DNA of 14,202 nt, taken from UHGV virus genome UHGV-0304018. One strand, written 5' to 3'. The position numbers were made by a program, and so were the translations under genes. Source of the DNA: a virus. The notes beneath the pieces were generated by a model. It was not told where the DNA came from and searched no databases. It saw only the letters and a list, made by a program, of their open reading frames with translations. Shown piece by piece: positions 1-14,202 of this stretch; within the stretch, counting starts at the first letter, position 1; every line of letters starts with the position of its first letter.

Positions 1-46
1 GTAATTTCCACATTGACCTCCGGATCTGTTTCTCCCCCTATTTATA

Positions 47-75
47 ATCTTATCATACTGTCAACAGAATGTCAA
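47..75 (-). promoter_or_regulatory. Candidate leftward promoter inside the conserved 110-nt repeat block (copy A)
   Basis: On the minus strand: TTGACA (rc of 70..75), 17-nt spacer, TAAGAT (rc of 47..52). It points at a GTG start at position 11 whose ORF runs off the left window edge. Confidence 0.35.
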
Positions 76-382
76 TGAGAATTATTATCATTCAGGTGTG
101 CTATAGGTGCAAGCAAGTCCACAGCAAAGGGGTAAGCATTATTAATGGCCCCTACCGTGTCAAAACCAGAATCACTTATAGCATTTATGCAATAAGATTG
201 TCAATGGCCCACAATGGATGGAGAGCACTTTTTGTTAAAACTTTGGAGGGTGTTAAACTCAAACCTCATGAGAGGCCCTACAACGCGATTTAAGCATCAG
301 GTAATGCAATTCACTAGGGAGTATGGTTTATCTCGCTGTAGGCGCTAAAATCGCGCTTATTTTCGATTTATGAGTGTCATAT

Positions 383-404
383 TACGTGCATGCACACGCG
401 CGCG
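383..404. repeat. 22-nt strictly alternating purine-pyrimidine tract (tacgtgcatgcacacgcgcgcg) in repeat copy A
   Basis: Read directly. Copy B has an analogous 19-nt tract at the equivalent place with a different sequence. Confidence 0.8.
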
Positions 405-506
405 GAATCCCTCGCTTAAACGGTCCGGATTGGAAACAGAAGTCTCTTATCCGGACTCCACATTATAAAGCTCCGTGCTATAGCACTACGCTCCCCACAC
501 ACAATT

Positions 507-541
507 GGGTGACGTGTCATGTATGGAATACATTGTCACCC
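507..541. promoter_or_regulatory. Large imperfect palindrome GGGTGAC-N21-GTCACCC with nested ATGTAT/ATACAT arms; candidate operator or RNA hairpin (copy A)
   Basis: Arms are exact reverse complements; identical in both repeat copies and flanked by CACACA runs. Confidence 0.5.
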
Positions 542-606
542 CACACAGGCCGACGTAGTCGGTTTAGCTGTATAGCTAAAGTCACAGAGTGACCCACACA
601 CATATT

Positions 607-645
607 GCCTAAAGAGTCGCTAATGCTCTTTAGGCTTTCATTTGT
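607..645 (+). terminator. Rho-independent terminator, rightward (copy A)
   Basis: Perfect 10-bp stem gcctaaagag / ctctttaggc with a 9-nt loop, followed by tttcatttg. Confidence 0.6.
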
Positions 646-698
646 GGGTTAAGCTTTTCCCTTAGAAAACCTTCCCCACTCTCTGATCCCTCCCCATT

Positions 699-2302: not shown

Positions 2303-2328
2303 ATAAAAAAGGGGCCGTGATGGCCCCC
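2303..2328 (-). terminator. Rho-independent terminator ending the leftward membrane-protein gene
   Basis: Perfect hairpin ggggcc-gtgat-ggcccc (2311..2327) followed on the minus strand by T6, 17 nt after the stop codon at 2345. Confidence 0.75.
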
Positions 2329-2344
2329 TGGTGGGTTGGTGTGG

Positions 2345-3055
2345 TTATTTCATAGGAGAGGTTTCTACGGCTTCACCGTACATCTCATTAAGCATCTTCA
2401 ATGCTTCCATATCAACATTCAGGAGTGTTCCCTCAGTGATCCAGGCGTTATTCTGCCATGCTTCGTGAACGAGTTCACCGTTATACCATCGAGCCGTTCG
2501 TGTAGTTTCTATGCTTACACCGTCCATGTGGCGCATCTGTAGCCAACGATCATTGCCTTTTACATCCTTGCACCATACCGTCAGAACATCTTTATTTTTC
2601 CCAGTAGGTGCCCCACTGTTAACCGCCACTTTAATCTGGTTGCAAGCACCTTTTTCTGCATGATTCCACAGCCAGGCGTGAATCTGGTATTTATCTGTGC
2701 ATCCTATATCTTTAGAGAGATCGCAATCTAGCACACCATAAATATATTTATATGCTTTTACCCTGTCCTCCCATGTAAGATCGGAGACGTTAACCACTTC
2801 TTCATGCTGTGAGTTCACCTCTTCCACATTTGCAGCTGTATTTCCTGTGGGAAGAGAGAAGTAGGCCCAGCCAATAAGCCCCGCGACTATAACCAGACTT
2901 GTTATGACTGCTCCAGGGTGCTCTTTATATTGTGCATGCAGCTTTTTAATATCTTTCCCTACACTCATCACTAGTAATAGAGGCAAAGCAATTACTAACA
3001 CCCATGGACCAAATACAATGCAAGCTAATAGTGTAACAATAATTCCCTTAAACAT
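2345..3055 (-). CDS. Membrane protein, 236 aa: two N-terminal TM helices plus a ~165-aa extracytoplasmic domain with four Cys; function unknown
   Basis: ORF track; hydrophobic segments at about aa 5-30 and 50-68; SD AAGGGG 7 nt before the ATG; own terminator. The superinfection-exclusion or defence role is inference only. Confidence 0.75.
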   Translation of the reverse strand: MFKGIIVTLLACIVFGPWVLVIALPLLLVMSVGKDIKKLHAQYKEHPGAVITSLVIVAGLIGWAYFSLPTGNTAANVEEVNSQHEEVVNVSDLTWEDRVKAYKYIYGVLDCDLSKDIGCTDKYQIHAWLWNHAEKGACNQIKVAVNSGAPTGKNKDVLTVWCKDVKGNDRWLQMRHMDGVSIETTRTARWYNGELVHEAWQNNAWITEGTLLNVDMEALKMLNEMYGEAVETSPMK

Positions 3056-3062
3056 AGTGGTA

Positions 3063-3083
3063 CCCCTTTGCGAGAAGTTGATT
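3063..3083 (-). promoter_or_regulatory. Duplicated leader element AAAUCAACUUCUCGCAAA (minus-strand sense) immediately 5' of the ribosome-binding site of 2345..3055
   Basis: 18 nt identical to the element at 3583..3603; a 12-nt core gcgagaagttga recurs at 8086..8097. Confidence 0.5.
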
Positions 3084-3112
3084 TAAGTTAATAACCTGGT
3101 GGACTGTTCACA

Positions 3113-3373
3113 CTATTTATTCTTCTTAAATCTCCCATCCTCCTTTCTTTCGATATTGTGGTAGTCGGCATAGGCTTTTAGCCTTCTGTGCACGGTGGCG
3201 ATCCCCACACCGAAGGTTTTAGCGATGACCTGTCGTGGCGTTCCCTCCTCAACCATCTTGTACATCTGTTCCGCTACATCCATTTGTGCGGCTATCTCCA
3301 TTTGCTTTGCCTTAGCTTTAATTTCAGCTATCAGCTCTTCCCTCAGTCTCTTAATATCTTTAGTTCCCGTCAT
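3113..3373 (-). CDS. Small DNA-binding protein, 86 aa: N-terminal charged helix plus a C-terminal HTH resembling the DNA-binding domain of Hin/Gin-type serine recombinases; no catalytic domain
   Basis: ORF track; GTPRQVIAKTFGVGIATVHRRLKAY resembles the Hin C-terminal HTH as recalled from memory, not searched; start codon overlaps the stop of an upstream small ORF (ATGA). Confidence 0.7.
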   Translation of the reverse strand: MTGTKDIKRLREELIAEIKAKAKQMEIAAQMDVAEQMYKMVEEGTPRQVIAKTFGVGIATVHRRLKAYADYHNIERKEDGRFKKNK

Positions 3374-3450
3374 AAACTCCGCTCAATGATGATTAATACA
3401 AAATCTAAGACTGCCAGACCTATTAAAAATACTTTGCCTCCTTTGCCCAT
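3370..3450 (-). CDS. Possible 26-aa hydrophobic peptide (MGKGGKVFLIGLAVLDFVLIIIERSL), translationally coupled to the HTH gene
   Basis: Hand translation; below the ORF-track length cut-off; single predicted TM segment; stop overlaps the downstream ATG. Confidence 0.25.
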   Translation of the reverse strand: MGKGGKVFLIGLAVLDFVLIIIERSL

Positions 3451-3451
3451 C

Positions 3452-3574
3452 TCACACCTCCACACACAGAGCTAACATCAGGGCTAAAACTCCAACCACC
3501 TCAATTGCCTTAACAATGTGTGGGTGATGAAACCTGGCCTTTTGCCATGCGCTGGCACTGTTCTTGATACCCAT
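3452..3574 (-). CDS. Possible 40-aa peptide with hydrophobic C-terminus (MGIKNSASAWQKARFHHPHIVKAIEVVGVLALMLALCVEV)
   Basis: Hand translation; SD AAGGTGA 5 nt before the ATG; the duplicated leader element lies immediately upstream. Confidence 0.3.
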   Translation of the reverse strand: MGIKNSASAWQKARFHHPHIVKAIEVVGVLALMLALCVEV

Positions 3575-3582
3575 AACTATCA

Positions 3583-3603
3583 CCTTTTGCGAGAAGTTGA
3601 TTT
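3583..3603 (-). promoter_or_regulatory. Second copy of the duplicated leader element, immediately 5' of the ribosome-binding site of the 40-aa ORF
   Basis: Read directly; identical 18-nt core to 3063..3083. Confidence 0.5.
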
Positions 3604-3638
3604 GTTTGCTCGGTTGGGTGCTTTCACTGGCTATGCCA

Positions 3639-3655
3639 GGTGACTTTCAGTCACC
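3639..3655. promoter_or_regulatory. Palindrome GGTGAC-tttca-GTCACC; same half-site as the repeat palindromes
   Basis: Read directly; sits in the divergent control region between the leftward module and the rightward capsid promoter. Confidence 0.4.
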
Positions 3656-3744
3656 CCTTTGGGTGTCTCTATCAATGCTACCCTTCCTTGATTCGAACTA
3701 TAACCGGGTAAATCCCCGGAAAACATTGATATTGATCAAAAGAT

Positions 3745-3775
3745 ATCTATCACGAATGAAAAAGTTATGATAGAT
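3745..3775. promoter_or_regulatory. Inverted repeat ATCTATCA-N15-TGATAGAT; candidate operator
   Basis: Read directly; about 90 bp upstream of the consensus capsid promoter; a further ttgatagagg half-site follows near 3800. Confidence 0.4.
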
Positions 3776-3861
3776 GCGATGAGATGACGTATTGATGGGA
3801 TTGATAGAGGTCTGAAAATACCGTTACTACGCTAATTATTAGAATTTATATAATAAGGGGG

Positions 3862-3890
3862 TTGACAATTTGAGAGAATACTGATATAAT
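3862..3890 (+). promoter_or_regulatory. Perfect consensus sigma70 promoter: TTGACA, 17-nt spacer, TATAAT
   Basis: Read directly: -35 at 3862..3867, -10 at 3885..3890, with an AT-rich upstream stretch. Confidence 0.8.
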
Positions 3891-3896
3891 ATACAT

Positions 3897-4370
3897 ATAC
3901 CGTAAATCAATGGTGAAAGTGATTTGCCGTATTTTCCTCCAAAGTAAAGGCGACCAGGTAGCGGTGCCGCCTTATAAATAACACTACCCTGATCATCGTT
4001 GAGTGGTCGATTAATTCTCCTATTGGGCTAGTTATCCACACAGTTTTCTTTTGCGGGTTTTCTGTGTGGGTAGCTATCCCGAAAGGTATTTCCCCGCTGA
4101 TGTGACCGCAGCCTGAACTGATCCGGGGGAGTGCCTTTCGTGATAGTGCTCTCTAGTAACCGTAACCCATACTGTGAACTATCATCCGACTGTTGTCGGT
4201 TTCCCCATGTGGAATAGCCCCCGCTTGGCTACGGTGCGGGGCTATCTCCCTCTCCTTGTATCAATTTCCCTTTAGATTTCCGGCATAACTTTTCGGCCCG
4301 AGCCTGTCGTGGTTTGAGAGGTTATACCGGAACTCTTTGAGGGGAGTTAATTTAAATCGCAGGTGATCAA
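3897..4370 (+). other. ~470-nt untranslated, hairpin-rich leader between the consensus promoter and the first capsid gene; candidate cis-regulatory RNA
   Basis: No plausible ORF; several strong stems, e.g. ccacacag-N18-ctgtgtgg (4036..4069), ccgac-tgtt-gtcgg (4187..4200), tagcccccgc-N11-gcggggcta, aaggcg-N16-cgcctt. Folds were judged by eye. Confidence 0.5.
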
Positions 4371-6129: not shown

Positions 6130-6234
6130 CGCTCTCGGGAAGAGCTATAAGCGATTCTAACGAATAACTGCCCTGTATTTTCTGCAGATTTTAAGCAGGG
6201 CAACGAAAAGATTCATTTTTGAGGCATGTTCAAT

Positions 6235-7002
6235 ATGGCTAATGATGCTCTAACAGCTGCAAAACAAGCTGAGTCGAGATCTCCTGCATTCACTGTTATG
6301 TGTGGGGGATATTCACAAAACAAAAATATAATGGATGGCTTCAACTATACCGATAATGTGGCTATCTTCTTTGACTCTATCTCTGATGTCAGCTATTCGT
6401 TCCCTGTTGAGAAATCGAGCTATGCGGTCGAGGATGGCACCACCATGTCAGACCATGCCGTCATTAAAGATAAATCTGTCAGCTTTACGGGTATTGTTAC
6501 CTCTTCCCCTCATATCATCCGGAAAGAGAACTACATCGACCGGAACACTGATCCAGATAATCCCCGTGAATCTATGCGCCCTGCTGCCGCTGTTCAGGCA
6601 CTTATGGAAATGAGAGACAAGCGCCAGCTGGTTAGCCTGGTTAGTGAAGATGCCGGACTTCTTGAGAACTTCATCATGACGAAATGTGAAGTTAAGCGTA
6701 GCTCTTCCTCTGGCGACTGCATCACTATTGATTGCACTTTTGAAGAATTCCGCACCTTCAAGGTGAAGATGGTCGAAAATGCCGGAGTTTTCACTAACAG
6801 TAAGAAGGTGAATAAAACACAGCAAAAGGGTGCTGTTAACAGTGCTGAGAAGAATAGCAACGTCGGGAACTCAACCAACACCCCATCGGCTAAGCCTAAA
6901 AATTTACAAACTTTGCTCGATGAAAATGATGGGGCTATGAGCACAAAAGACATTTATGATCAGCAAAGGCAAGCCAAATTTGCCAAGGATGCTACAAAAT
7001 GA
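6235..7002 (+). CDS. Hypothetical phage protein, 255 aa, probably virion-associated; function unknown
   Basis: ORF track ORF 6226..7002, start re-placed at the ATG at 6235 (GAGG 10 nt upstream); stop overlaps the next gene's start (ATGA). Confidence 0.75.
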   Translation: MANDALTAAKQAESRSPAFTVMCGGYSQNKNIMDGFNYTDNVAIFFDSISDVSYSFPVEKSSYAVEDGTTMSDHAVIKDKSVSFTGIVTSSPHIIRKENYIDRNTDPDNPRESMRPAAAVQALMEMRDKRQLVSLVSEDAGLLENFIMTKCEVKRSSSSGDCITIDCTFEEFRTFKVKMVENAGVFTNSKKVNKTQQKGAVNSAEKNSNVGNSTNTPSAKPKNLQTLLDENDGAMSTKDIYDQQRQAKFAKDATK

Positions 7003-7457
7003 AAGTCCGGTGCACCATAGACAAGCGCATGATGGATAAGCTGCATAAAGAGCTCTCACAGATGGAAGGTGTAGCGGTTGGCTGGGATGACGGGAAACAC
7101 TATAGCGGCCTGAATTACGCCACACTGGCGGCTATCCACTCTGAGGGGTGGGGTGATTTGCCTAAGCGCTCATTTATGGAGTCTGCCCACGCTGCAATGC
7201 TCTATGAGAGCCTGAGACACACAAAAGCCCTGATTAATGCAATCGTAAAGGGTGGGAGCTCTGAGGCCGTCAGAAAGCGAATTGGCAAGCGATACGCCGA
7301 CATTTTGGAGACTATCCTGATTAGTGGGCAATTCAGCAATAACAAGGTTTCCCCACAATGGGCAAGCTATAAAGGCTTCAATGATGCAATGCGCCACTAT
7401 GATGATTTGATCGGTGCAATCAAATACTGGGTAGACATAGACAAGAAAGGGGCCTGA
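6999..7457 (+). CDS. Putative head-tail joining or tail-completion protein, 152 aa (HK97 gp10-like)
   Basis: ORF track; motif HSEGWGDLPKRSFMES matches the P-x-R-x-F signature I associate with that family; size ~150 aa. Recalled from memory, not searched. Confidence 0.75.
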   Translation: MKVRCTIDKRMMDKLHKELSQMEGVAVGWDDGKHYSGLNYATLAAIHSEGWGDLPKRSFMESAHAAMLYESLRHTKALINAIVKGGSSEAVRKRIGKRYADILETILISGQFSNNKVSPQWASYKGFNDAMRHYDDLIGAIKYWVDIDKKGA

Positions 7458-7470
7458 TAGCCCCTCTCTC
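7449..7470. terminator. Possible bidirectional terminator between convergent genes
   Basis: Hairpin ggggc-ctgata-gcccc overlapping the stop of 6999..7457, with T-rich sequence on both strands. Confidence 0.4.
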
Positions 7471-7475
7471 TGAGA

Positions 7476-7625
7476 TTAGATAAACTGGGATAATTCCCGC
7501 ACAAGCTTTATCTCCTGCCGTTCCTTCTGCTTCTCTTCTAACCATTTCCGGCCTTCTTCAGTCTTGAGAAACTTGCGAGCGTGAATCTTGCGGTTATTTC
7601 GCTTAATGGCATTGGCATTCTTCAT
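7476..7625 (-). CDS. Small very basic protein, 49 aa (MKNANAIKRNNRKIHARKFLKTEEGRKWLEEKQKERQEIKLVRELSQFI)
   Basis: Hand translation; below the ORF-track cut-off; SD AAGGGG before the ATG; candidate promoter just upstream; its start context is nearly identical to that of the membrane-protein gene. Confidence 0.5.
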   Translation of the reverse strand: MKNANAIKRNNRKIHARKFLKTEEGRKWLEEKQKERQEIKLVRELSQFI

Positions 7626-7659
7626 AGTGTCACCCCTTCTTATGACCTGCTACGCCTAC

Positions 7660-7688
7660 ATTATAGCCAAAATCCTGAATTCAGACAA
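7660..7688 (-). promoter_or_regulatory. Candidate leftward promoter: TTGTCT, 17-nt spacer, TATAAT
   Basis: -10 is rc of 7660..7665 and -35 is rc of 7683..7688; about 27 nt upstream of the start of the 49-aa ORF. Confidence 0.5.
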
Positions 7689-8085
7689 TAGAACTCTTTT
7701 TGATGCCGTGTTGGTGGTAAGGAGAAACACTAGCATCATTTAGGGGTTTTCAGGTTTTCATGTAGATCAGCTTTATCAGGTACCTGCTTATATTCCGGTG
7801 CGGTGAAACCGTGTGGGCATCTCTTAGTTTTGGCTTATCACTTATTGCCGGGTAAGAGAGCAGAACCACCAACGTTTGCCTGTTTATCACCTTGGTTAGG
7901 GTGAGGCCGCATCAAGCCCAGTGCTCTACAAGATACTCCAGATCATAGACGCTTATTTTCTCTTAGAGGTCGCGTTAACCTCTGGGATCTGTTTCCACTG
8001 ATGAATATAAAACAAACGGTATGAATGATCAAACGTGAACAGAAAGAGAGTTGACTTTCTCTCTGCAGATGATCACACTTGCCAG

Positions 8086-8097
8086 GCGAGAAGTTGA
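8086..8097. repeat. Third copy of the 12-nt core gcgagaagttga
   Basis: Read directly; lies 3' of the tape-measure gene, overlapping a possible rightward terminator hairpin (agcccc-N19-ggggct followed by ttttatt, 8097..8130). Confidence 0.5.
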
Positions 8098-8142
8098 GCC
8101 CCAAAGGATGACAAATCCCGAGGGGCTTTTATTATCAACCAG

Positions 8143-10284
8143 TTAGAAAAGCTGATTAGCTTCCTGTGTGGCTTTCCAATCCAGCTGATCGCTGACTTCC
8201 TTCTGGATCACCCTGGCAATTCCCCCCTCATCAATGGTTATCTCCCACTTGCCGGAGATCTCACCCTGCGGAACTACACTGATTTGAGTCGGCTGATAGC
8301 CTCCATTCTGAATAGCAATACCACCCGTTGGTGTTGGTCTGGTAATGTAGCGTCCTGCGTCCAGACGATAATCAAGGCCAAGGAAGCTAGAAGCACTATT
8401 AACCATACTGGTTAACCATTCAGGATGTTTAGCTCCTTCCTGCCGCTGATTATCAGGATTCTGCCAGTAGGAATCTAAGCTATTTGCAATGTCAAATCCT
8501 GTCAAAACAATCCCTGCCGGACCTGCAAATCTTCCTCCAAGTCTGCCTGCTTTCCCGATAAAGCCGCCTCTACCTGGTCTGCCTTTGCCTGCTGTGCCTC
8601 CAGTGCTGATATCACCAACACCGACTAAAGCACTAAGCGCCGCTTTAAGTTTCCACAGCATGGAAATAAGGCCGCCAACCATGCCAGCAATGCTTGTTGC
8701 AACCTTCAGGCCTAACAGGGCGGTCACAACCTGGCCAATCTTCTCGCCTGCATCCTGTGCGGTCCAGCCTAACGTCTCACCAATGCCTTTGGCGATCTTC
8801 TTAGTCCACCACCAAGCCCAGTTGACCCAAAAATAAATTTCATGCATTGCCTCGCCTAACATAACTCCGAGAGATTTGGCATCTTCACCTGAGCTACTGA
8901 AAATTGAGGATAAATCTTCAAAGATATAAATAAGGGATTCTGACAGGGTAATGACGCCATCCGCAGGATCCACAACACCCATAAAGGATTGCTTTAGTTT
9001 AAAAAACTGGTTGCTCATTCTCTGCAGTGCCACTTCAGGCTGTTGCATAGATTTAGCAAAAGCGTCAGTTTCTTTTGCAGCACCCCAGATTTTCACTAGA
9101 GAGGGAAGAAGCTTGTCCAGGGTGATTTTGCCATCTGCCATGGCTTTATCGAATTCCTGGGCACTCTTGATGATTCCGGCATCAATAGCGGCCTGTTGAA
9201 AATCCTGTTGTGAGCCTGCAAAGGCTTCTGACAGCTGGCCACGCAGCTCTTCCGCAGCTACTCTTCCTTTTGAAGCCATTTGTTGGACCGCAACAAGCGC
9301 CCTGTTCTGTTGCTCGCCAGTAGCACCCACTGAGCGGCCTTTAATCGCCATAGCCTCAAAAAGAGCCTGCTTATCAGATTCCTTCATGGTGGGAGTAGCG
9401 GCAGCAAAACGCATATAGCCACCCTCCATCTCACGCTGATCCATCCCGTAGGTGTTGGCTGTGTTCTCGATAAAAGCCATCTGCTGGTCAGTCTTGGCTT
9501 TATCATCCTTGTTCTGAGCAAGCAAACCATAATAGGCTGAGTTATGGTCAGATTGAGCGCTCATAGCACCACTAACAGCTCTCTGAATACCCCATCCTGC
9601 AGCGGTCAGGCCAATGGCTATCTTGCCTAAAGCACTGTTAAGCTTGCCGATATTGTTATGCACCTTGCTCGCACCTGCTGCCAGTTTATCTAGCTTGCTT
9701 TGAAAGGTGGTGGCATCTCTAGAGGCCATCTTCATTTCAGCTCTGAGTCGGGCCATTTTCTGATTATAGGTCTGCAGGTTAATAGCCCCTTTAGCATAAT
9801 CAGCATTAACTCTCTGGATTCTGCTTTGGAACTGAGCAACCAGGGATCCATCAAACATGCTGCTGATTCGTGCACTGTTGGCCCCTACACGTGCTTTTCT
9901 GTGCTGAACATCTCCAACACTACGATCTAACAGTTTTTGTTGTCTGGCGGCTTCTCTGGCTTGTTGTTGGTAGAACTTGCGCATAGAGTTAAGTTCGGCA
10001 TTGTTGCCCCCGGTCAGACGGCTGACAGCCTGAGCACGTTGTTTCTTCTGTGCTTCCTGTTGTTTCCTCTGAGCTCTGGCTATCTGCTCTTCCACCTTAG
10101 CGCGTGTTCTTTGTGTTCTGAGCACAGCCTGATTAGATTTAAAATCAGCTTTAGCTATATCGTCGGTAGCTTTCTTCCAGGATTTTTTATAATCCTCAAG
10201 CCGTTTAACTTCTTTTCGCCAGGAGGATTTATCAGAGTCCCAGTAAATAACGTTTGTTAGTCTGGCTACTTCCTTCATTGCCAT
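8143..10284 (-). CDS. Tail tape measure protein, 713 aa
   Basis: ORF track; charged coiled-coil-like N-terminal third, central region with the conserved core recalled for tape-measure proteins (GRVAAEELRGQLSEAF), and hydrophobic and Gly-rich segments near the C-terminus; SD GAGG before the ATG. Confidence 0.85.
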   Translation of the reverse strand: MAMKEVARLTNVIYWDSDKSSWRKEVKRLEDYKKSWKKATDDIAKADFKSNQAVLRTQRTRAKVEEQIARAQRKQQEAQKKQRAQAVSRLTGGNNAELNSMRKFYQQQAREAARQQKLLDRSVGDVQHRKARVGANSARISSMFDGSLVAQFQSRIQRVNADYAKGAINLQTYNQKMARLRAEMKMASRDATTFQSKLDKLAAGASKVHNNIGKLNSALGKIAIGLTAAGWGIQRAVSGAMSAQSDHNSAYYGLLAQNKDDKAKTDQQMAFIENTANTYGMDQREMEGGYMRFAAATPTMKESDKQALFEAMAIKGRSVGATGEQQNRALVAVQQMASKGRVAAEELRGQLSEAFAGSQQDFQQAAIDAGIIKSAQEFDKAMADGKITLDKLLPSLVKIWGAAKETDAFAKSMQQPEVALQRMSNQFFKLKQSFMGVVDPADGVITLSESLIYIFEDLSSIFSSSGEDAKSLGVMLGEAMHEIYFWVNWAWWWTKKIAKGIGETLGWTAQDAGEKIGQVVTALLGLKVATSIAGMVGGLISMLWKLKAALSALVGVGDISTGGTAGKGRPGRGGFIGKAGRLGGRFAGPAGIVLTGFDIANSLDSYWQNPDNQRQEGAKHPEWLTSMVNSASSFLGLDYRLDAGRYITRPTPTGGIAIQNGGYQPTQISVVPQGEISGKWEITIDEGGIARVIQKEVSDQLDWKATQEANQLF

Positions 10285-10285
10285 T

Positions 10286-10522
10286 TTATACCTCGCCCTG
10301 TCTTAAAGATTTTGATAATGAAATAGCCCTTTTCAGGGCCTCTTTATCAATATTATATTTCTCCGCCAGCTCTTCGATTGAGAGGCCTTCTGTGTGGGAG
10401 CTACTTTTAATAATGGTGGACCCCTCTTTCGCTGCCTCTGGCAGGTGACCTATTGTCACCCCTTCGGGCGTGTCTTCGGAGTCCTTAACCAGTTTTTGAT
10501 AAATCTTTTCGTAGATATTCAT
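10286..10522 (-). CDS. Hypothetical protein, 78 aa, immediately upstream of the tape-measure gene
   Basis: ORF track; SD AAGG 8 nt before the ATG; stop is 1 nt from the tape-measure ATG. A tail-assembly-chaperone role is inferred from position only. Confidence 0.7.
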   Translation of the reverse strand: MNIYEKIYQKLVKDSEDTPEGVTIGHLPEAAKEGSTIIKSSSHTEGLSIEELAEKYNIDKEALKRAISLSKSLRQGEV

Positions 10523-10523
10523 A

Positions 10524-10913
10524 TCATTTGCCTTTGCGTCTTAGTGGACACTTATCGCCAATAGTCCACACAAAAATATAATGGCGCTTGCTTTCAGCTT
10601 TAGGATTTAATAATTCTTTATGCAAATATCCGGCTGACAGCATTTTATCGACCAGGTTTTTCACTCTTTGCCCTTCCTCAAATGTTTGTGCTTTGAAATA
10701 GAGATTTGGAAAGTTTTGGCCTGTATACTTTCCATCTTCATTTAAGCGGGTGCATACCCAACGACATAAATCATCGTCGTTAAGATCACTAACGTGTGGT
10801 TTATCATCGCTGCTAAATAACGCCTGTTTAAAATGGGAGTAACTAAACTCCCCTTCTTCCAGGAAATCACCCTCTTCGAATTCAACTATCATTTCTTCAA
10901 TATTCATAGGCAT
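10524..10913 (-). CDS. Hypothetical protein, 129 aa, acidic N-terminus; possible tail assembly chaperone by position
   Basis: ORF track; compact gene spacing. Confidence 0.75.
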   Translation of the reverse strand: MPMNIEEMIVEFEEGDFLEEGEFSYSHFKQALFSSDDKPHVSDLNDDDLCRWVCTRLNEDGKYTGQNFPNLYFKAQTFEEGQRVKNLVDKMLSAGYLHKELLNPKAESKRHYIFVWTIGDKCPLRRKGK

Positions 10914-10967
10914 ATCCTCTCATTGATGCACCCCCCAAAAAATGGGGAGTGCTTATTTATCAATAGC

Positions 10968-13353: not shown

Positions 13354-13486
13354 AGTATAAGCCTCCTGTTAGCTCACTAACCTGTGCGATATATGATTAA
13401 AAAGAAACGGGAACTTAAGACAAGCCCCCGCCAGTCTACTAAAGGAAATTCACTATGATGAGAATTACCCTATGCTTTATATTTTA

Positions 13487-13636
13487 TCAGACATTCGTCA
13501 AATTGTCAACAATCTTTTTGTATTTATCTATCATTTTTTCTTCAAGATTGTCGATTGCAGTTACTCCGGCTATGTAGGCAACACCGCACCACAGTACAGC
13601 CAGGTTGATGATCGCTATTGCATCAGTAATTTCCAC
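13487..13636 (-). CDS. Possible small single-TM protein, 49 aa, GTG start; its start lies inside the conserved 110-nt repeat block
   Basis: Hand translation (VEITDAIAIINLAVLWCGVAYIAGVTAIDNLEEKMIDKYKKIVDNLTNV); GGAGG 5 nt before the GTG; competes with a probably spurious plus-strand ORF 13472..13672. Confidence 0.35.
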   Translation of the reverse strand: MEITDAIAIINLAVLWCGVAYIAGVTAIDNLEEKMIDKYKKIVDNLTNV

Positions 13637-13671
13637 ATTGACCTCCGGATCTGTTTCTCCCCCTATTTATA

Positions 13672-13700
13672 ATCTTATCATATTGTCAACCAATTGTCAA
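13672..13700 (-). promoter_or_regulatory. Candidate leftward promoter inside the conserved 110-nt repeat block (copy B)
   Basis: Same TTGACA / 17-nt / TAAGAT arrangement as copy A, upstream of the small ORF 13487..13636, which has a GGAGG ribosome-binding site. Confidence 0.35.
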
Positions 13701-13914
13701 TGAGAATTATTATCATTTAGGTGTGCTATAGGTGCCATAGCCTGCACAGCAGACACAAGCAAGCCCACAAGGGAGGGCACTTTTTGCCTTAAGCGCTCTA
13801 AAATCGATTCTAACGCGATTTAGAGGTCAGGTAATGCAATTGCACTACTCACACTAGTTAATGCAGCCAGAAGGCCATTTAGGGGGCTTATTTTCGATTT
13901 ATGAGTGTATCCTT

Positions 13915-13933
13915 TATATATGTGTGCGTGCAC
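13915..13933. repeat. 19-nt alternating purine-pyrimidine tract (tatatatgtgtgcgtgcac) in repeat copy B
   Basis: Read directly; followed by the palindrome cccgcgcggg. Confidence 0.8.
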
Positions 13934-14089
13934 CCGCGCGGGAGACTCTTTGCTGCCTCCTTCCGGCGCTGGCAAGCTTTCGGCAGCGGTCCACATGTGG
14001 GCCTCATGCTGACGCATTCGCCGGACCACACACAGACCCGAAGGGCTTAGCCATGGGCTAAGGTGCCGTAGGCACTCCCACACACAATT

Positions 14090-14124
14090 GGGTGACGTGT
14101 CATGTATGGAATACATTGTCACCC
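14090..14124. promoter_or_regulatory. Same GGGTGAC-N21-GTCACCC palindrome (copy B)
   Basis: Identical to 507..541. Confidence 0.5.
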
Positions 14125-14137
14125 CCACACACATATT

Positions 14138-14176
14138 GCCTAAAGAGTCGCTAATGCTCTTTAGGCTTTCATTTGT
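14138..14176 (+). terminator. Rho-independent terminator, rightward (copy B)
   Basis: Identical 10-bp stem, 9-nt loop and T-rich tail as 607..645. Confidence 0.6.
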
Positions 14177-14202
14177 GGGTTAAGCTTTTCCCTTAGAAAA
14201 CC

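What the first reader, a model, noticed from the sequence alone, without database searches (positions are those of the whole stretch)
3063..3603. 18-nt element duplicated immediately upstream of two leftward start codons, with a third partial copy after the tape-measure gene
The minus-strand sequence AAAUCAACUUCUCGCAAA sits directly 5' of the ribosome-binding site of both the membrane-protein gene and the 40-aa ORF, and its 12-nt core recurs at 8086..8097 beside a terminator-like hairpin. An exactly duplicated leader points to a shared translational operator. If the region around 8086 is transcribed rightward it would be perfectly antisense to both leaders, resembling RNA-based immunity in P4-type satellites.
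Basis: partly seen in the sequence, partly recalled or inferred. Interest (0 to 1): 0.6.

Follow-up and report, generated by a model that had tools for sequence, protein, structure and literature searches.

The report
Shared leader motif with candidate antisense RNA
A 12-18 base sequence sits directly before the ribosome-binding sites of two genes on a small, uncharacterised E. coli plasmid that carries phage capsid and tail genes; a third copy elsewhere on the plasmid looks like the pairing end of a small regulatory RNA aimed at both genes, but whether that RNA is made has not been tested.

Summary
AAATCAACTTCTCGCAAA occurs exactly at 3067-3084 and 3586-3603 on the minus strand. Each copy abuts a Shine-Dalgarno sequence and ends 11 nt before an ATG. 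The 12-nt core TCAACTTCTCGC recurs at 8086-8097 in the same orientation (0.00 exact copies expected by chance).

The window is a ~13.5 kb E. coli plasmid from a family seen in hundreds of assemblies. In 39 sampled members, every sequence spanning the sites keeps a recognisable copy. The third locus has two unrelated sequence versions. Read rightward, both share a -35-like GAGTTGACTT block, a 28-30 nt gap, GCGAGA(A/G)GTTGA and a rho-independent terminator.

The core changes I saw are C/U transitions opposite a G of the predicted RNA, so pairing is kept. The motif is not a host-genome repeat, matches no Rfam family, and is absent from one related candidate helper phage.

Best reading (about 50%): a roughly 50-90 nt trans-acting antisense RNA controls translation of a 40-aa membrane peptide gene and a variable envelope-protein gene. 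A shared protein operator remains a serious rival.

It resembles P4 immunity only in having one RNA with two targets, and it fails two tested P4/C4 features. Transcription of the RNA is untested.

The parts
3586..3603 (-). Leader motif copy 1 (18-mer; core 3589-3600), directly 5' of SD AGGTGA (3580-3585) of the 40-aa ORF
   Evidence: The 18-mer is invariant in all 36 family sequences that cover it. It lies in the longest fully invariant block (20 nt) of a 4-way alignment of diverged leaders.
3067..3084 (-). Leader motif copy 2 (18-mer; core 3070-3081), directly 5' of SD GGGGT (3062-3066) of the variable envelope-protein gene
   Evidence: Homology to most relatives breaks exactly at the ATG after this copy. 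The core is kept in front of four unrelated gene classes.
3452..3574 (-). 40-aa ORF with a C-terminal hydrophobic helix; first cistron and target 1
   Evidence: Always exactly 40 codons, in 9 protein alleles across 36 plasmids, with conserved MxIKNSA..HHPH..CVE. No Pfam, NCBIfam or PADLOC match.
3370..3450 (-). 26-aa hydrophobic ORF whose stop overlaps the next start (ATGA); absent in the diverged clade
3113..3373 (-). 86-aa helix-turn-helix protein lying between the two motif copies
   Evidence: Pfam HTH_7 E=3.6e-6; phrog_664 DNA-binding protein
2345..3055 (-). 236-aa membrane protein in the variable slot; last cistron and target 2
   Evidence: The alternatives in relatives all carry a signal peptide or transmembrane segments.
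2309..2329 (-). Terminator of the leftward 40-aa ORF / HTH / variable-gene operon
   Evidence: 8-pair stem with 6 GC pairs, followed by TTTTATTTA
8086..8097 (+). Third copy, read on the + strand as GCGAGAAGTTGA: the proposed 5' pairing region of the antisense RNA
   Evidence: The 12-bp duplex with either leader has a predicted energy of -20.9 kcal/mol.
8051..8079 (+). Promoter-like TTGACT(8051-8056)-17 nt-CACACT(8074-8079). It would place the transcription start at or next to G8086
   Evidence: Read. At 8 of 12 matches it falls below the scan threshold. The equivalent TTGACT-18-TAACAT in relatives was reported by the scan. The GAGTTGACTT block is shared by two otherwise unalignable locus versions.
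8098..8135 (+). Rho-independent terminator on the + strand: GCCCC...GGGGC followed by TTTTATTAT
   Evidence: Fold (-18.7 kcal/mol, z -2.9). A U-run follows the stem only on the + strand, in the window, L011 and all type A relatives.
8040..8065 (.). Hairpin enclosing the -35-like block. On the minus strand it is terminator-like for the tape-measure operon

Best explanation
The third copy is the pairing region of a small trans-acting antisense RNA. In this window the RNA would be about 50 nt (8086 to ~8135, + strand); in most relatives about 90 nt. It is transcribed rightward from a sigma-70-type promoter in the gap between the convergent capsid/neck operon and the tape-measure operon, and it ends at the rho-independent terminator.

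Its GCGAGAAGUUGA segment pairs with UCAACUUCUCGC, which lies 3 nt upstream of the Shine-Dalgarno sequences of the first cistron (40-aa membrane peptide) and the last cistron (variable envelope protein) of the leftward operon. Pairing there changes ribosome access to both start sites together. Repression is the more likely direction, by blocking an unstructured C/A-rich standby or enhancer region.

Shown: the motif, its fusion to the SD, its conservation, the complementarity, and the + strand terminator.

Inferred: that the RNA is made, where its 5' end lies, the direction of the effect, and any role of Hfq.
For: (1) There are three exact 12-mers against 0.00 expected by chance.

(2) All 39 sampled family sequences that span the sites keep a recognisable copy. 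Copy 1 is invariant even in a clade whose genes are only 68-80% identical at the nucleotide level.

(3) The motif stays fused to the SD, while the SD sequence, the SD-to-ATG distance (11-14 nt), both flanks and the downstream gene all change. This points to an RNA-level or translation-level role.

(4) The third locus exists in two versions that cannot be aligned with each other. Both keep, on the + strand, GAGTTGACTT, then 28-30 nt, then GCGAGA(A/G)GTTGA, then a GC stem followed by a U-run. The putative -10 elements, CACACT and TAACAT, share the critical A2 and T6 positions, and they put the start at the G of GCGAGA.

(5) A U-tract follows the terminator stem only on the + strand. The 455-nt type A intergenic region folds better as + strand RNA (z -5.3) than as minus strand RNA (z -2.9).

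(6) The changes inside positions 2-12 of the core are C/U transitions opposite a G of the predicted RNA, or A/G opposite U. Pairing survives in every plasmid, and the A-type RNA never co-occurs with a C-type target.

(7) The leaders are unstructured (z about 0), so the motif is accessible.

(8) The motif is not a host-genome repeat.
Against: There is no expression data.

The -10 element in this window matches only 3 of 6 positions, and weak promoter-like sites are common by chance (9 found, 10.5 expected).

In most relatives the left arm of a 12-bp hairpin overlaps the proposed -10. Either the hairpin is not part of the RNA, or the start lies further upstream and the antisense segment sits in a loop. 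The single arm variant (L240/L241) gives G.U on the + strand and A.C on the minus strand, which favours the second option.

Complementarity is short (12-15 nt) and ends at -15 relative to the start codon.

The wobble-compatible pattern rests on only about three independent changes. A fourth change, U to A at core position 1 in the diverged clade, breaks the terminal pair.

The -35-like block reads AAGTCAACTC on the minus strand, which resembles the 5' half of the motif. It could therefore be a fourth protein-binding box rather than a promoter element.
Confidence: 0.5

Rival explanations
1. The motif is a binding site for one sequence-specific protein, recognised either on RNA (a translational operator) or on DNA (a roadblock or operator). 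The protein could be the plasmid's own 86-aa HTH protein encoded between copies 1 and 2, or a helper-phage or host factor. The third copy would be a further site of the same regulon.
For: All three copies are in the same orientation. An HTH_7-type DNA-binding protein is encoded between copies 1 and 2. The third locus carries a second, similar box (AAGTCAACTC on the minus strand) about 30 nt away in both versions. In most relatives the third copy is displayed in the loop of a 12-bp hairpin, a common way to present an RNA-binding site.
Against: Fusion to the SD rather than to a promoter is unusual for a DNA operator. The leader copies are not in hairpins, so the three sites would be presented differently. 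This model does not explain why both versions of the third locus place the complement just upstream of a + strand terminator and about 30 nt after a -35-like block. The other repeats in the promoter region (ATTGAT/TGATAG around 3720-3810) and the 46-nt sequence shared by the two main promoters (I1) look like the more probable protein operators, and they differ from this motif.
Confidence: 0.25
2. The third copy acts in the sense orientation, inside the 3' untranslated end of the leftward tape-measure operon. There it would be a decoy that mimics the two leaders and titrates a regulator encoded elsewhere, such as a host or helper-phage small RNA or an RNase.
For: The third copy has the same polarity as the tape-measure gene and lies 46 nt past its stop. 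The hairpin between them has no U-tract on the minus strand, so leftward transcripts probably read through it. In this window a minus-strand terminator-like hairpin follows the copy (8064-8045).
Against: No partner is known. The motif and its complement are absent from the one rV5-like candidate helper genome examined, and no Rfam small RNA matches. The minus-strand RNA folds less well than the + strand RNA. This reading is compatible with, and may coexist with, the antisense RNA model: the tape-measure 3' end would then act as a sponge for that RNA.
Confidence: 0.1
3. There is no trans regulation. The 18-mer is simply an efficient, unstructured translation-initiation cassette or a junction for modular gene exchange, copied along with swapped genes, and the third 12-mer is a relic.
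For: Homology breakpoints between plasmids fall exactly at copy 2, and both of its flanks vary. The leaders are C/A-rich and unstructured, like known translational enhancers.
Against: A relic would not be kept as an exact or near-exact 12-mer in two unrelated sequence contexts at the same locus in all 36 sequences that cover it. 12-18 bp is too short for homologous recombination. No recombinase catalytic domain is encoded.
Confidence: 0.1

Closest known systems
P4 immunity (CI RNA with seqA/seqC) and the P1/P7 C4 antisense RNA (Rfam C4 family)
   Same: One short RNA segment is complementary to two separate target sites on a mobile element's own mRNA. The element is plasmid-like and phage-related.
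   Different: In P4 the CI RNA is processed from the same untranslated transcript that carries its targets, which flank it, and it causes premature transcription termination (PMC4825925). Here the three copies are direct repeats, so the RNA must come from the opposite strand. It lies 4.5 kb from its targets, the targets abut Shine-Dalgarno sequences, and no C4-type or other Rfam match exists.
Type I toxin-antitoxin pairs with dispersed or trans complementarity: par of pAD1 (Fst/RNA II), tisB/istR-1, zorO/orzO, shoB/ohsC (from my own knowledge of the literature)
   Same: The target is a small hydrophobic peptide gene (here 40 aa). A short RNA pairs with 12-20 nt in the 5' leader, upstream of or at the ribosome-binding site. 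In par(pAD1) the complementarity likewise comes from direct DNA repeats read in opposite directions, with a shared terminator region.
   Different: Toxicity of the 40-aa peptide is untested. The RNA gene is far from the target rather than adjacent. A second, much larger and variable envelope-protein gene carries the same target site.
Enterobacterial trans-acting small RNAs with a 5' pairing region and a rho-independent terminator, and GcvB-type binding to C/A-rich enhancers upstream of the SD (from my own knowledge)
   Same: The predicted architecture matches: a promoter, a 5'-terminal pairing region, then a terminator with a U-tail. The target lies in an unstructured C/A-rich region just upstream of the SD, and there are several targets.
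   Different: The RNA is plasmid-borne and restricted to one plasmid family. Expression and Hfq dependence are unknown.
Protein translational operators such as phage T4 RegA or the MS2 coat protein operator (from my own knowledge)
   Same: The same short sequence sits at the translation-initiation regions of several genes.
   Different: No RNA-binding protein has been identified here, and those systems do not carry an extra copy next to a terminator on the opposite strand.

Membership tests
P4 CI RNA / P1-P7 C4 antisense RNA (Rfam C4) | The RNA matches the C4/CI covariance model (sequence plus structure) | tested here: not met
   cmscan against all Rfam 15 families at E<=1 on the window and E<=5 on L001 and L243 found no C4 hit, only sub-threshold terminator-like noise
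P4 CI RNA / P1-P7 C4 antisense RNA (Rfam C4) | The regulator and its two targets lie on the same transcript, with the targets flanking the RNA (inverted repeats on one strand) | tested here: not met
   All three copies are direct repeats on the minus strand, and the third is 4.5 kb from the others in a different transcription unit. P4 arrangement as described in PMC4825925.
P4 CI RNA / P1-P7 C4 antisense RNA (Rfam C4) | One RNA segment is complementary to two target sites | tested here: met
   GCGAGAAGTTGA (8086-8097, +) is the exact complement of 3070-3081 and 3589-3600
P4 CI RNA / P1-P7 C4 antisense RNA (Rfam C4) | Acts by premature transcription termination; matured by processing (RNase P) | not testable with these tools
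   Needs transcript mapping. The position of the targets next to the SD suggests translational control instead.
Trans-acting base-pairing small RNA | Own promoter | tested here: inconclusive
   TTGACT-17-CACACT in the window (8 of 12 matches, below the scan threshold) and TTGACT-18-TAACAT in relatives (9 of 12). The -35 block is conserved between unalignable versions, but sites of this strength are common by chance.
Trans-acting base-pairing small RNA | Rho-independent terminator on the RNA's strand | tested here: met
   A GC-rich stem plus a U-run on the + strand only, in both locus versions
Trans-acting base-pairing small RNA | Pairing-region complementarity at or near the target's translation-initiation region, kept in evolution | tested here: met
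   12-15 nt duplex at -26..-15, -20.9 kcal/mol. All 39 family sequences stay compatible through G-C or G.U, but on only about 3 independent changes.
Trans-acting base-pairing small RNA | The RNA is expressed and regulates its targets | not testable with these tools
   No transcriptome data are available, and no literature on this plasmid family was found
Type I toxin-antitoxin | A small (<60 aa) hydrophobic peptide gene as target | tested here: met
   The 40-aa ORF has a C-terminal hydrophobic helix and its length and frame are conserved in 9 alleles. Toxicity was not tested.
Type I toxin-antitoxin | The antitoxin RNA is encoded next to or overlapping the toxin gene | tested here: not met
   The candidate RNA is 4.5 kb away. 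No antisense promoter-plus-terminator unit was noticed at 3452-3650.

The most novel reading that the evidence does not exclude
The three-copy motif is the core of an RNA switch in a previously undescribed family of plasmid-borne satellites of rV5-like (Vequintavirinae) lytic phages. A small RNA lies convergent with, and fully antisense to, the 3' end of the replication/tape-measure operon. It holds a membrane-peptide/regulator/envelope-protein operon silent. When tape-measure-operon transcription rises, for example on helper infection, that transcript soaks up the RNA and releases the operon. Satellite activation would then be coupled to expression of exclusion or lysis-type proteins purely through RNA-RNA competition.
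Probability: 0.12. Interest if true: 0.75.

Novelty: new member of a known kind. Interest (0 to 1): 0.48.

Why it matters
If the RNA exists, it is a compact and easily testable case of one plasmid-encoded small RNA co-regulating the first and last cistrons of an operon through identical leader tags. The tag has been kept while the downstream gene was swapped at least four times.

It would also be the first regulatory handle on a widespread ~13.5 kb E. coli/Shigella plasmid family, seen in hundreds of assemblies, for which I found no literature. These plasmids carry a capsid gene, tail-completion and Dit-like genes and a tape-measure gene, but no portal or terminase was recognised. They may be satellites of large lytic rV5-like phages.

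If the RNA does not exist, the motif is still a strongly constrained operator for an unknown factor.

Tried and rejected
1. AAWTCAACYTCTCGCAAA scanned over 185,579 species genomes gave 103 single hits. By my estimate about 70 are expected by chance. No listed hit was enterobacterial. In metagenomes, only family plasmids carried two pattern matches; three further loci paired one exact core with a 1-mismatch copy in an unrelated context. Rejected.

2. Known RNA family. No Rfam match on the window or on relatives.

3. Motif borrowed from, or aimed at, the helper phage. The whole 144.8 kb genome of the rV5-like phage A7_1 has no copy with fewer than 2 mismatches. No support, but only one phage was checked.

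4. Extended complementarity beyond the core. None found by inspection. duplexfold on the long sequences was uninformative.

5. The motif as an internal anti-SD. Weak local pairings exist in both leaders, but z-scores are about 0 and the pairings are not preserved when the SD changes (L003, L240). Not supported, so the direction of regulation is left open.

6. An anti-leader-like sequence inside the tape-measure gene (8733-8750, I18). Present in only a few plasmids. Incidental.

7. A small ORF at the third locus. No ORF is shared between the two locus versions.

8. More distant relatives for covariation. The HTH86, capsid and neck protein searches found only this E. coli family, so covariation power is limited.

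9. Function of the targets. Pfam, PHROGs, NCBIfam and PADLOC give nothing for ORF40 or the 236-aa protein. The single-sequence AlphaFold model of the 236-aa protein was too poor to search with (pLDDT 50).

10. Literature on the plasmid family. Nothing found.

11. Phage-RNA-polymerase-type promoter (an 18-mer followed by G's). Considered from memory only; I could recall no matching promoter class, and the third copies lack the G-run.

Full report
**Observation.** On the minus strand, AAATCAACTTCTCGCAAA occurs exactly at 3586-3603 and 3067-3084. There are no other matches with up to 3 mismatches, against 0.03 expected. Each copy is followed at once by a Shine-Dalgarno sequence (AGGTGA, GGGGT) and ends 11 nt before an ATG. 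The ATGs start a 40-aa ORF (3452-3574) and a 236-aa protein with hydrophobic N-terminal helices (2345-3055). The 12-nt core TCAACTTCTCGC has a third exact copy at 8086-8097 on the same strand, 46 nt past the stop of the tape-measure gene (8143-10284; Pfam TMP_3). That makes three exact copies against 0.00 expected, with no degenerate extras.

**What the window is.** It matches no phage record. At 91-94% identity it matches circular, non-mobilizable ~13.2-13.7 kb E. coli plasmids (records fetched). The window is slightly longer than one plasmid unit, so its ends repeat.

- The plasmid carries a major capsid protein (phrog_29), a Dit-like protein, a tail-completion/neck protein and a tape-measure protein.
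- It also has a Rep-like winged-helix protein next to 22-nt iterons, and about 2.2 kb without genes.
- No portal or terminase was recognised.
- Protein searches find only this family, on contigs of about 13.5 kb from E. coli or Shigella, in hundreds of assemblies.
- A diverged clade exists: capsid 82% amino-acid identity, genes 68-80% nucleotide identity.
- I found no paper on the family.

**Operon context.** Reading leftward the order is: copy 1, the 40-aa ORF, a 26-aa hydrophobic ORF, an 86-aa HTH protein (HTH_7), copy 2, a variable gene, and a strong terminator at 2329-2309. The 40-aa ORF is a real gene: it is exactly 40 codons in 36 plasmids, in 9 alleles, with conserved residues. The last gene is a swap slot. 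Similarity between plasmids breaks exactly at its ATG, and four unrelated classes occur there, all with a signal peptide or transmembrane helices.

**Conservation of the motif.** I compared 39 family sequences.

- Copy 1's 18-mer never varies. In a four-way alignment of diverged leaders it lies in the longest invariant block, 20 nt.
- Copy 2's 12-nt core is invariant in the main clade, although both flanks and the downstream gene change.
- In the diverged clade copy 2 reads ACAACCTCTCGC, or ACAATCTCTCGC in one plasmid.
- What stays constant is the junction ...CTCGCAAA with the SD (AGGTGA, GGGGT, GGAGA, GGATGA, AGGGG). The motif-to-ATG distance ranges from 11 to 14 nt.

A constraint tied to the SD points to a role on the mRNA. 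The leaders themselves are unstructured (z about 0).

**The third locus.** Every family sequence covering the gap between the convergent neck and tape-measure genes has a copy there, in the same orientation. There are two versions that cannot be aligned with each other.

- Type B (this window, L011, L086): GGGGC-TCAACTTCTCGC-CTGG.
- Type A (all others): AAAAATCAACCTCTCGCGAG, in the loop of a 12-bp hairpin (z -5.7 on the + strand).

Read on the + strand, both versions share the same layout. First comes GAGTTGACTT, then 28 or 30 unrelated bases, then GCGAGA(A/G)GTTGA, then a GC-rich stem followed by a U-run.

Taken as a promoter, this gives TTGACT-17-CACACT in type B and TTGACT-18-TAACAT in type A. 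The scan reported the type A site. Both place the transcription start at or next to the G of GCGAGA. The U-run follows the stem only on the + strand, including in L011, whose downstream sequence differs. The type A intergenic region (about 450 nt) is 93-100% identical between clades whose flanking genes are 62-90% identical. It folds better as + strand RNA (z -5.3) than as minus strand RNA (z -2.9). No ORF is shared by the two versions.

**Pairing logic.** A + strand RNA would pair with both leaders over 12 nt in type B (-20.9 kcal/mol). In type A it pairs over 15 nt with one G.U to leader 1, and over 12 nt with one G.U to leader 2. The variation seen is:

- A or G in the RNA opposite U6 of the targets;
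- C6 in the diverged clade's copy 2, opposite G;
- U5 in L244, opposite G.

All of these keep a standard or wobble pair. The A-type RNA never meets a C-type target. This is what RNA-RNA pairing predicts, but it rests on about three independent changes, all transitions. One further change, position 1 of copy 2 in the diverged clade, breaks the terminal pair. I count this as moderate evidence only.

**Tests that could have explained the motif away.**

- It is not a host repeat. A scan of one genome for each of 185,579 species gave 103 isolated hits, and no listed hit was enterobacterial. By my estimate about 70 are expected by chance.
- Among 120 metagenome hits, only family plasmids carry two pattern matches.
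- No Rfam family matches.
- The neck, Dit-like and tape-measure proteins are 36-49% identical to the tail module of rV5-like Vequintavirinae. This suggests such phages as helpers. The complete genome of one of them, A7_1, lacks the motif.

**Mechanism.** The best-supported reading is a plasmid-encoded trans-acting antisense RNA that binds just upstream of the SDs of the first and last cistrons and sets their translation together (about 50%). Repression by masking an accessible C/A-rich standby or enhancer region is the most likely direction. Activation cannot be excluded, although I found no conserved SD-sequestering hairpin.

Two sub-models remain open for type A. The RNA may start at GCGAGA, giving a 5' pairing region. 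Or it may start upstream, so that the antisense segment is presented in the hairpin loop. The one arm variant (L240/L241) gives G.U on the + strand and A.C on the minus strand, which favours a + strand RNA containing the whole hairpin.

The tape-measure operon probably reads through the same locus from the other side. If so, its 3' end would be fully complementary to the RNA and could compete for it. This is inference.

**Rivals.**

- A sequence-specific protein binding all three sites (about 25%). In its favour are the HTH gene between copies 1 and 2 and a similar AAGTCAACTC box near the third copy.
- A sense-strand decoy in the tape-measure 3' end (about 10%).
- A non-regulatory initiation cassette or recombination junction (about 10%).

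**Comparison with known systems.** The likeness to P4 is limited to one RNA having two targets. In P4, CI is processed from the same transcript as its flanking targets seqA and seqC, and it causes transcription termination (PMC4825925). Here the copies are direct repeats 4.5 kb apart, the targets abut SDs, and no C4/CI model matches. Two defining features were therefore tested and not met.

In design it is closer to trans-encoded small RNAs with a 5' pairing region and a terminator. It also resembles type I toxin-antitoxin pairs whose antitoxin pairs with 12-20 nt of the toxin leader. The par locus of pAD1 is the nearest of these, because its complementarity likewise comes from direct repeats read in opposite directions (my own knowledge). 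Differences here are the distance from the target, the second, non-toxin-like target, and the untested toxicity of the 40-aa peptide.

**Verdict.** The feature is real and strongly constrained. I class it as a probable new member of a known kind of regulator, sitting on an uncharacterised and interesting plasmid family. Expression of the RNA is the missing, easily obtained, decisive datum.

Noticed in passing
window 3621-3670 and 10426-10475; also NZ_CP020521 (L005) 10885-10934 and several sites in L240: A ~51-nt element made of adjacent short hairpins (leftward strand ~GACACCCAAAGGGGTGAC-N5-GTCACCTGGC-N3-GCCAGTGAAAG) is present or absent at different sites in different plasmids. One site is 17 nt upstream of leader motif 1, flanked by a CACCCAA direct repeat. 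Another is an in-frame insertion of 17 codons in the 78-aa ORF (61 aa in plasmids lacking it). A further copy lies under the Rep-like gene of L005. The stems show compensatory changes (CTGGC/GCCAG versus CTGCC/GGCAG). It occurs only on these plasmids, never on E. coli chromosomes. It looks like a tiny mobile palindromic element that tolerates coding regions.
   Followed up: partly
whole window; tail genes at 6226-7457 and 8143-10284: The ~13.5 kb plasmid carries capsid, Dit-like, neck and tape-measure genes, but no portal or terminase was recognised. The neck, Dit-like and tape-measure proteins are 36-49% identical to the tail module of ~145 kb rV5-like myoviruses (Vequintavirinae, e.g. phage A7_1). 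This may be an undescribed plasmid-borne satellite of lytic phages. No literature was found.
   Followed up: partly
L001 896-1350 (type A equivalent of window 7458-8140): The ~450-nt gene-free stretch between the neck gene and the terminator is 93-100% identical between clades whose flanking genes are 62-90% identical. It folds unusually well as + strand RNA (z -5.3). It could hold further non-coding RNAs or the packaging site.
   Followed up: partly
window ~13600-14202 plus 1-2345; iterons at 753-863: About 2.2 kb without annotated genes, in a 13.5 kb replicon, in every family member. It contains four 22-nt iterons (the presumed origin) and many CCCACACA-type repeats. There is no Rfam match.
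   Followed up: no
window 3862-3890 (+), 13478-13523 (-), 3897-4370: A perfect sigma-70 promoter (TTGACA-17-TATAAT) drives the capsid operon through a ~480-nt leader rich in hairpin-forming inverted repeats. Its 46-nt surroundings are 74% similar to the promoter region of the leftward rep/tape-measure operon, which suggests one common regulator. A weak leftward promoter overlaps it face to face (3917-3888).
   Followed up: no
window 7476-7625 (-): Type B plasmids (this window, L011) carry an extra 49-aa, very basic ORF with its own promoter-like site (7688-7660) in the neck/tape-measure gap. It is missing from type A plasmids.
   Followed up: no
window 1-671 versus 13531-14202: The window ends repeat each other imperfectly (90-100% identity, with indels). 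The source contig is longer than one plasmid unit (L086 is 15,489 nt). One RefSeq record is a 39.6 kb trimer with differences between units. Multimers or mixed variants seem common in assemblies.
   Followed up: no
window 8733-8750 versus 8083-8100: The tape-measure mRNA contains CAGGCGAGAAGATTGGCC, which is 15/18 identical to the sequence around the third copy's complement. It occurs in only a few plasmids, so it is probably incidental.
   Followed up: yes
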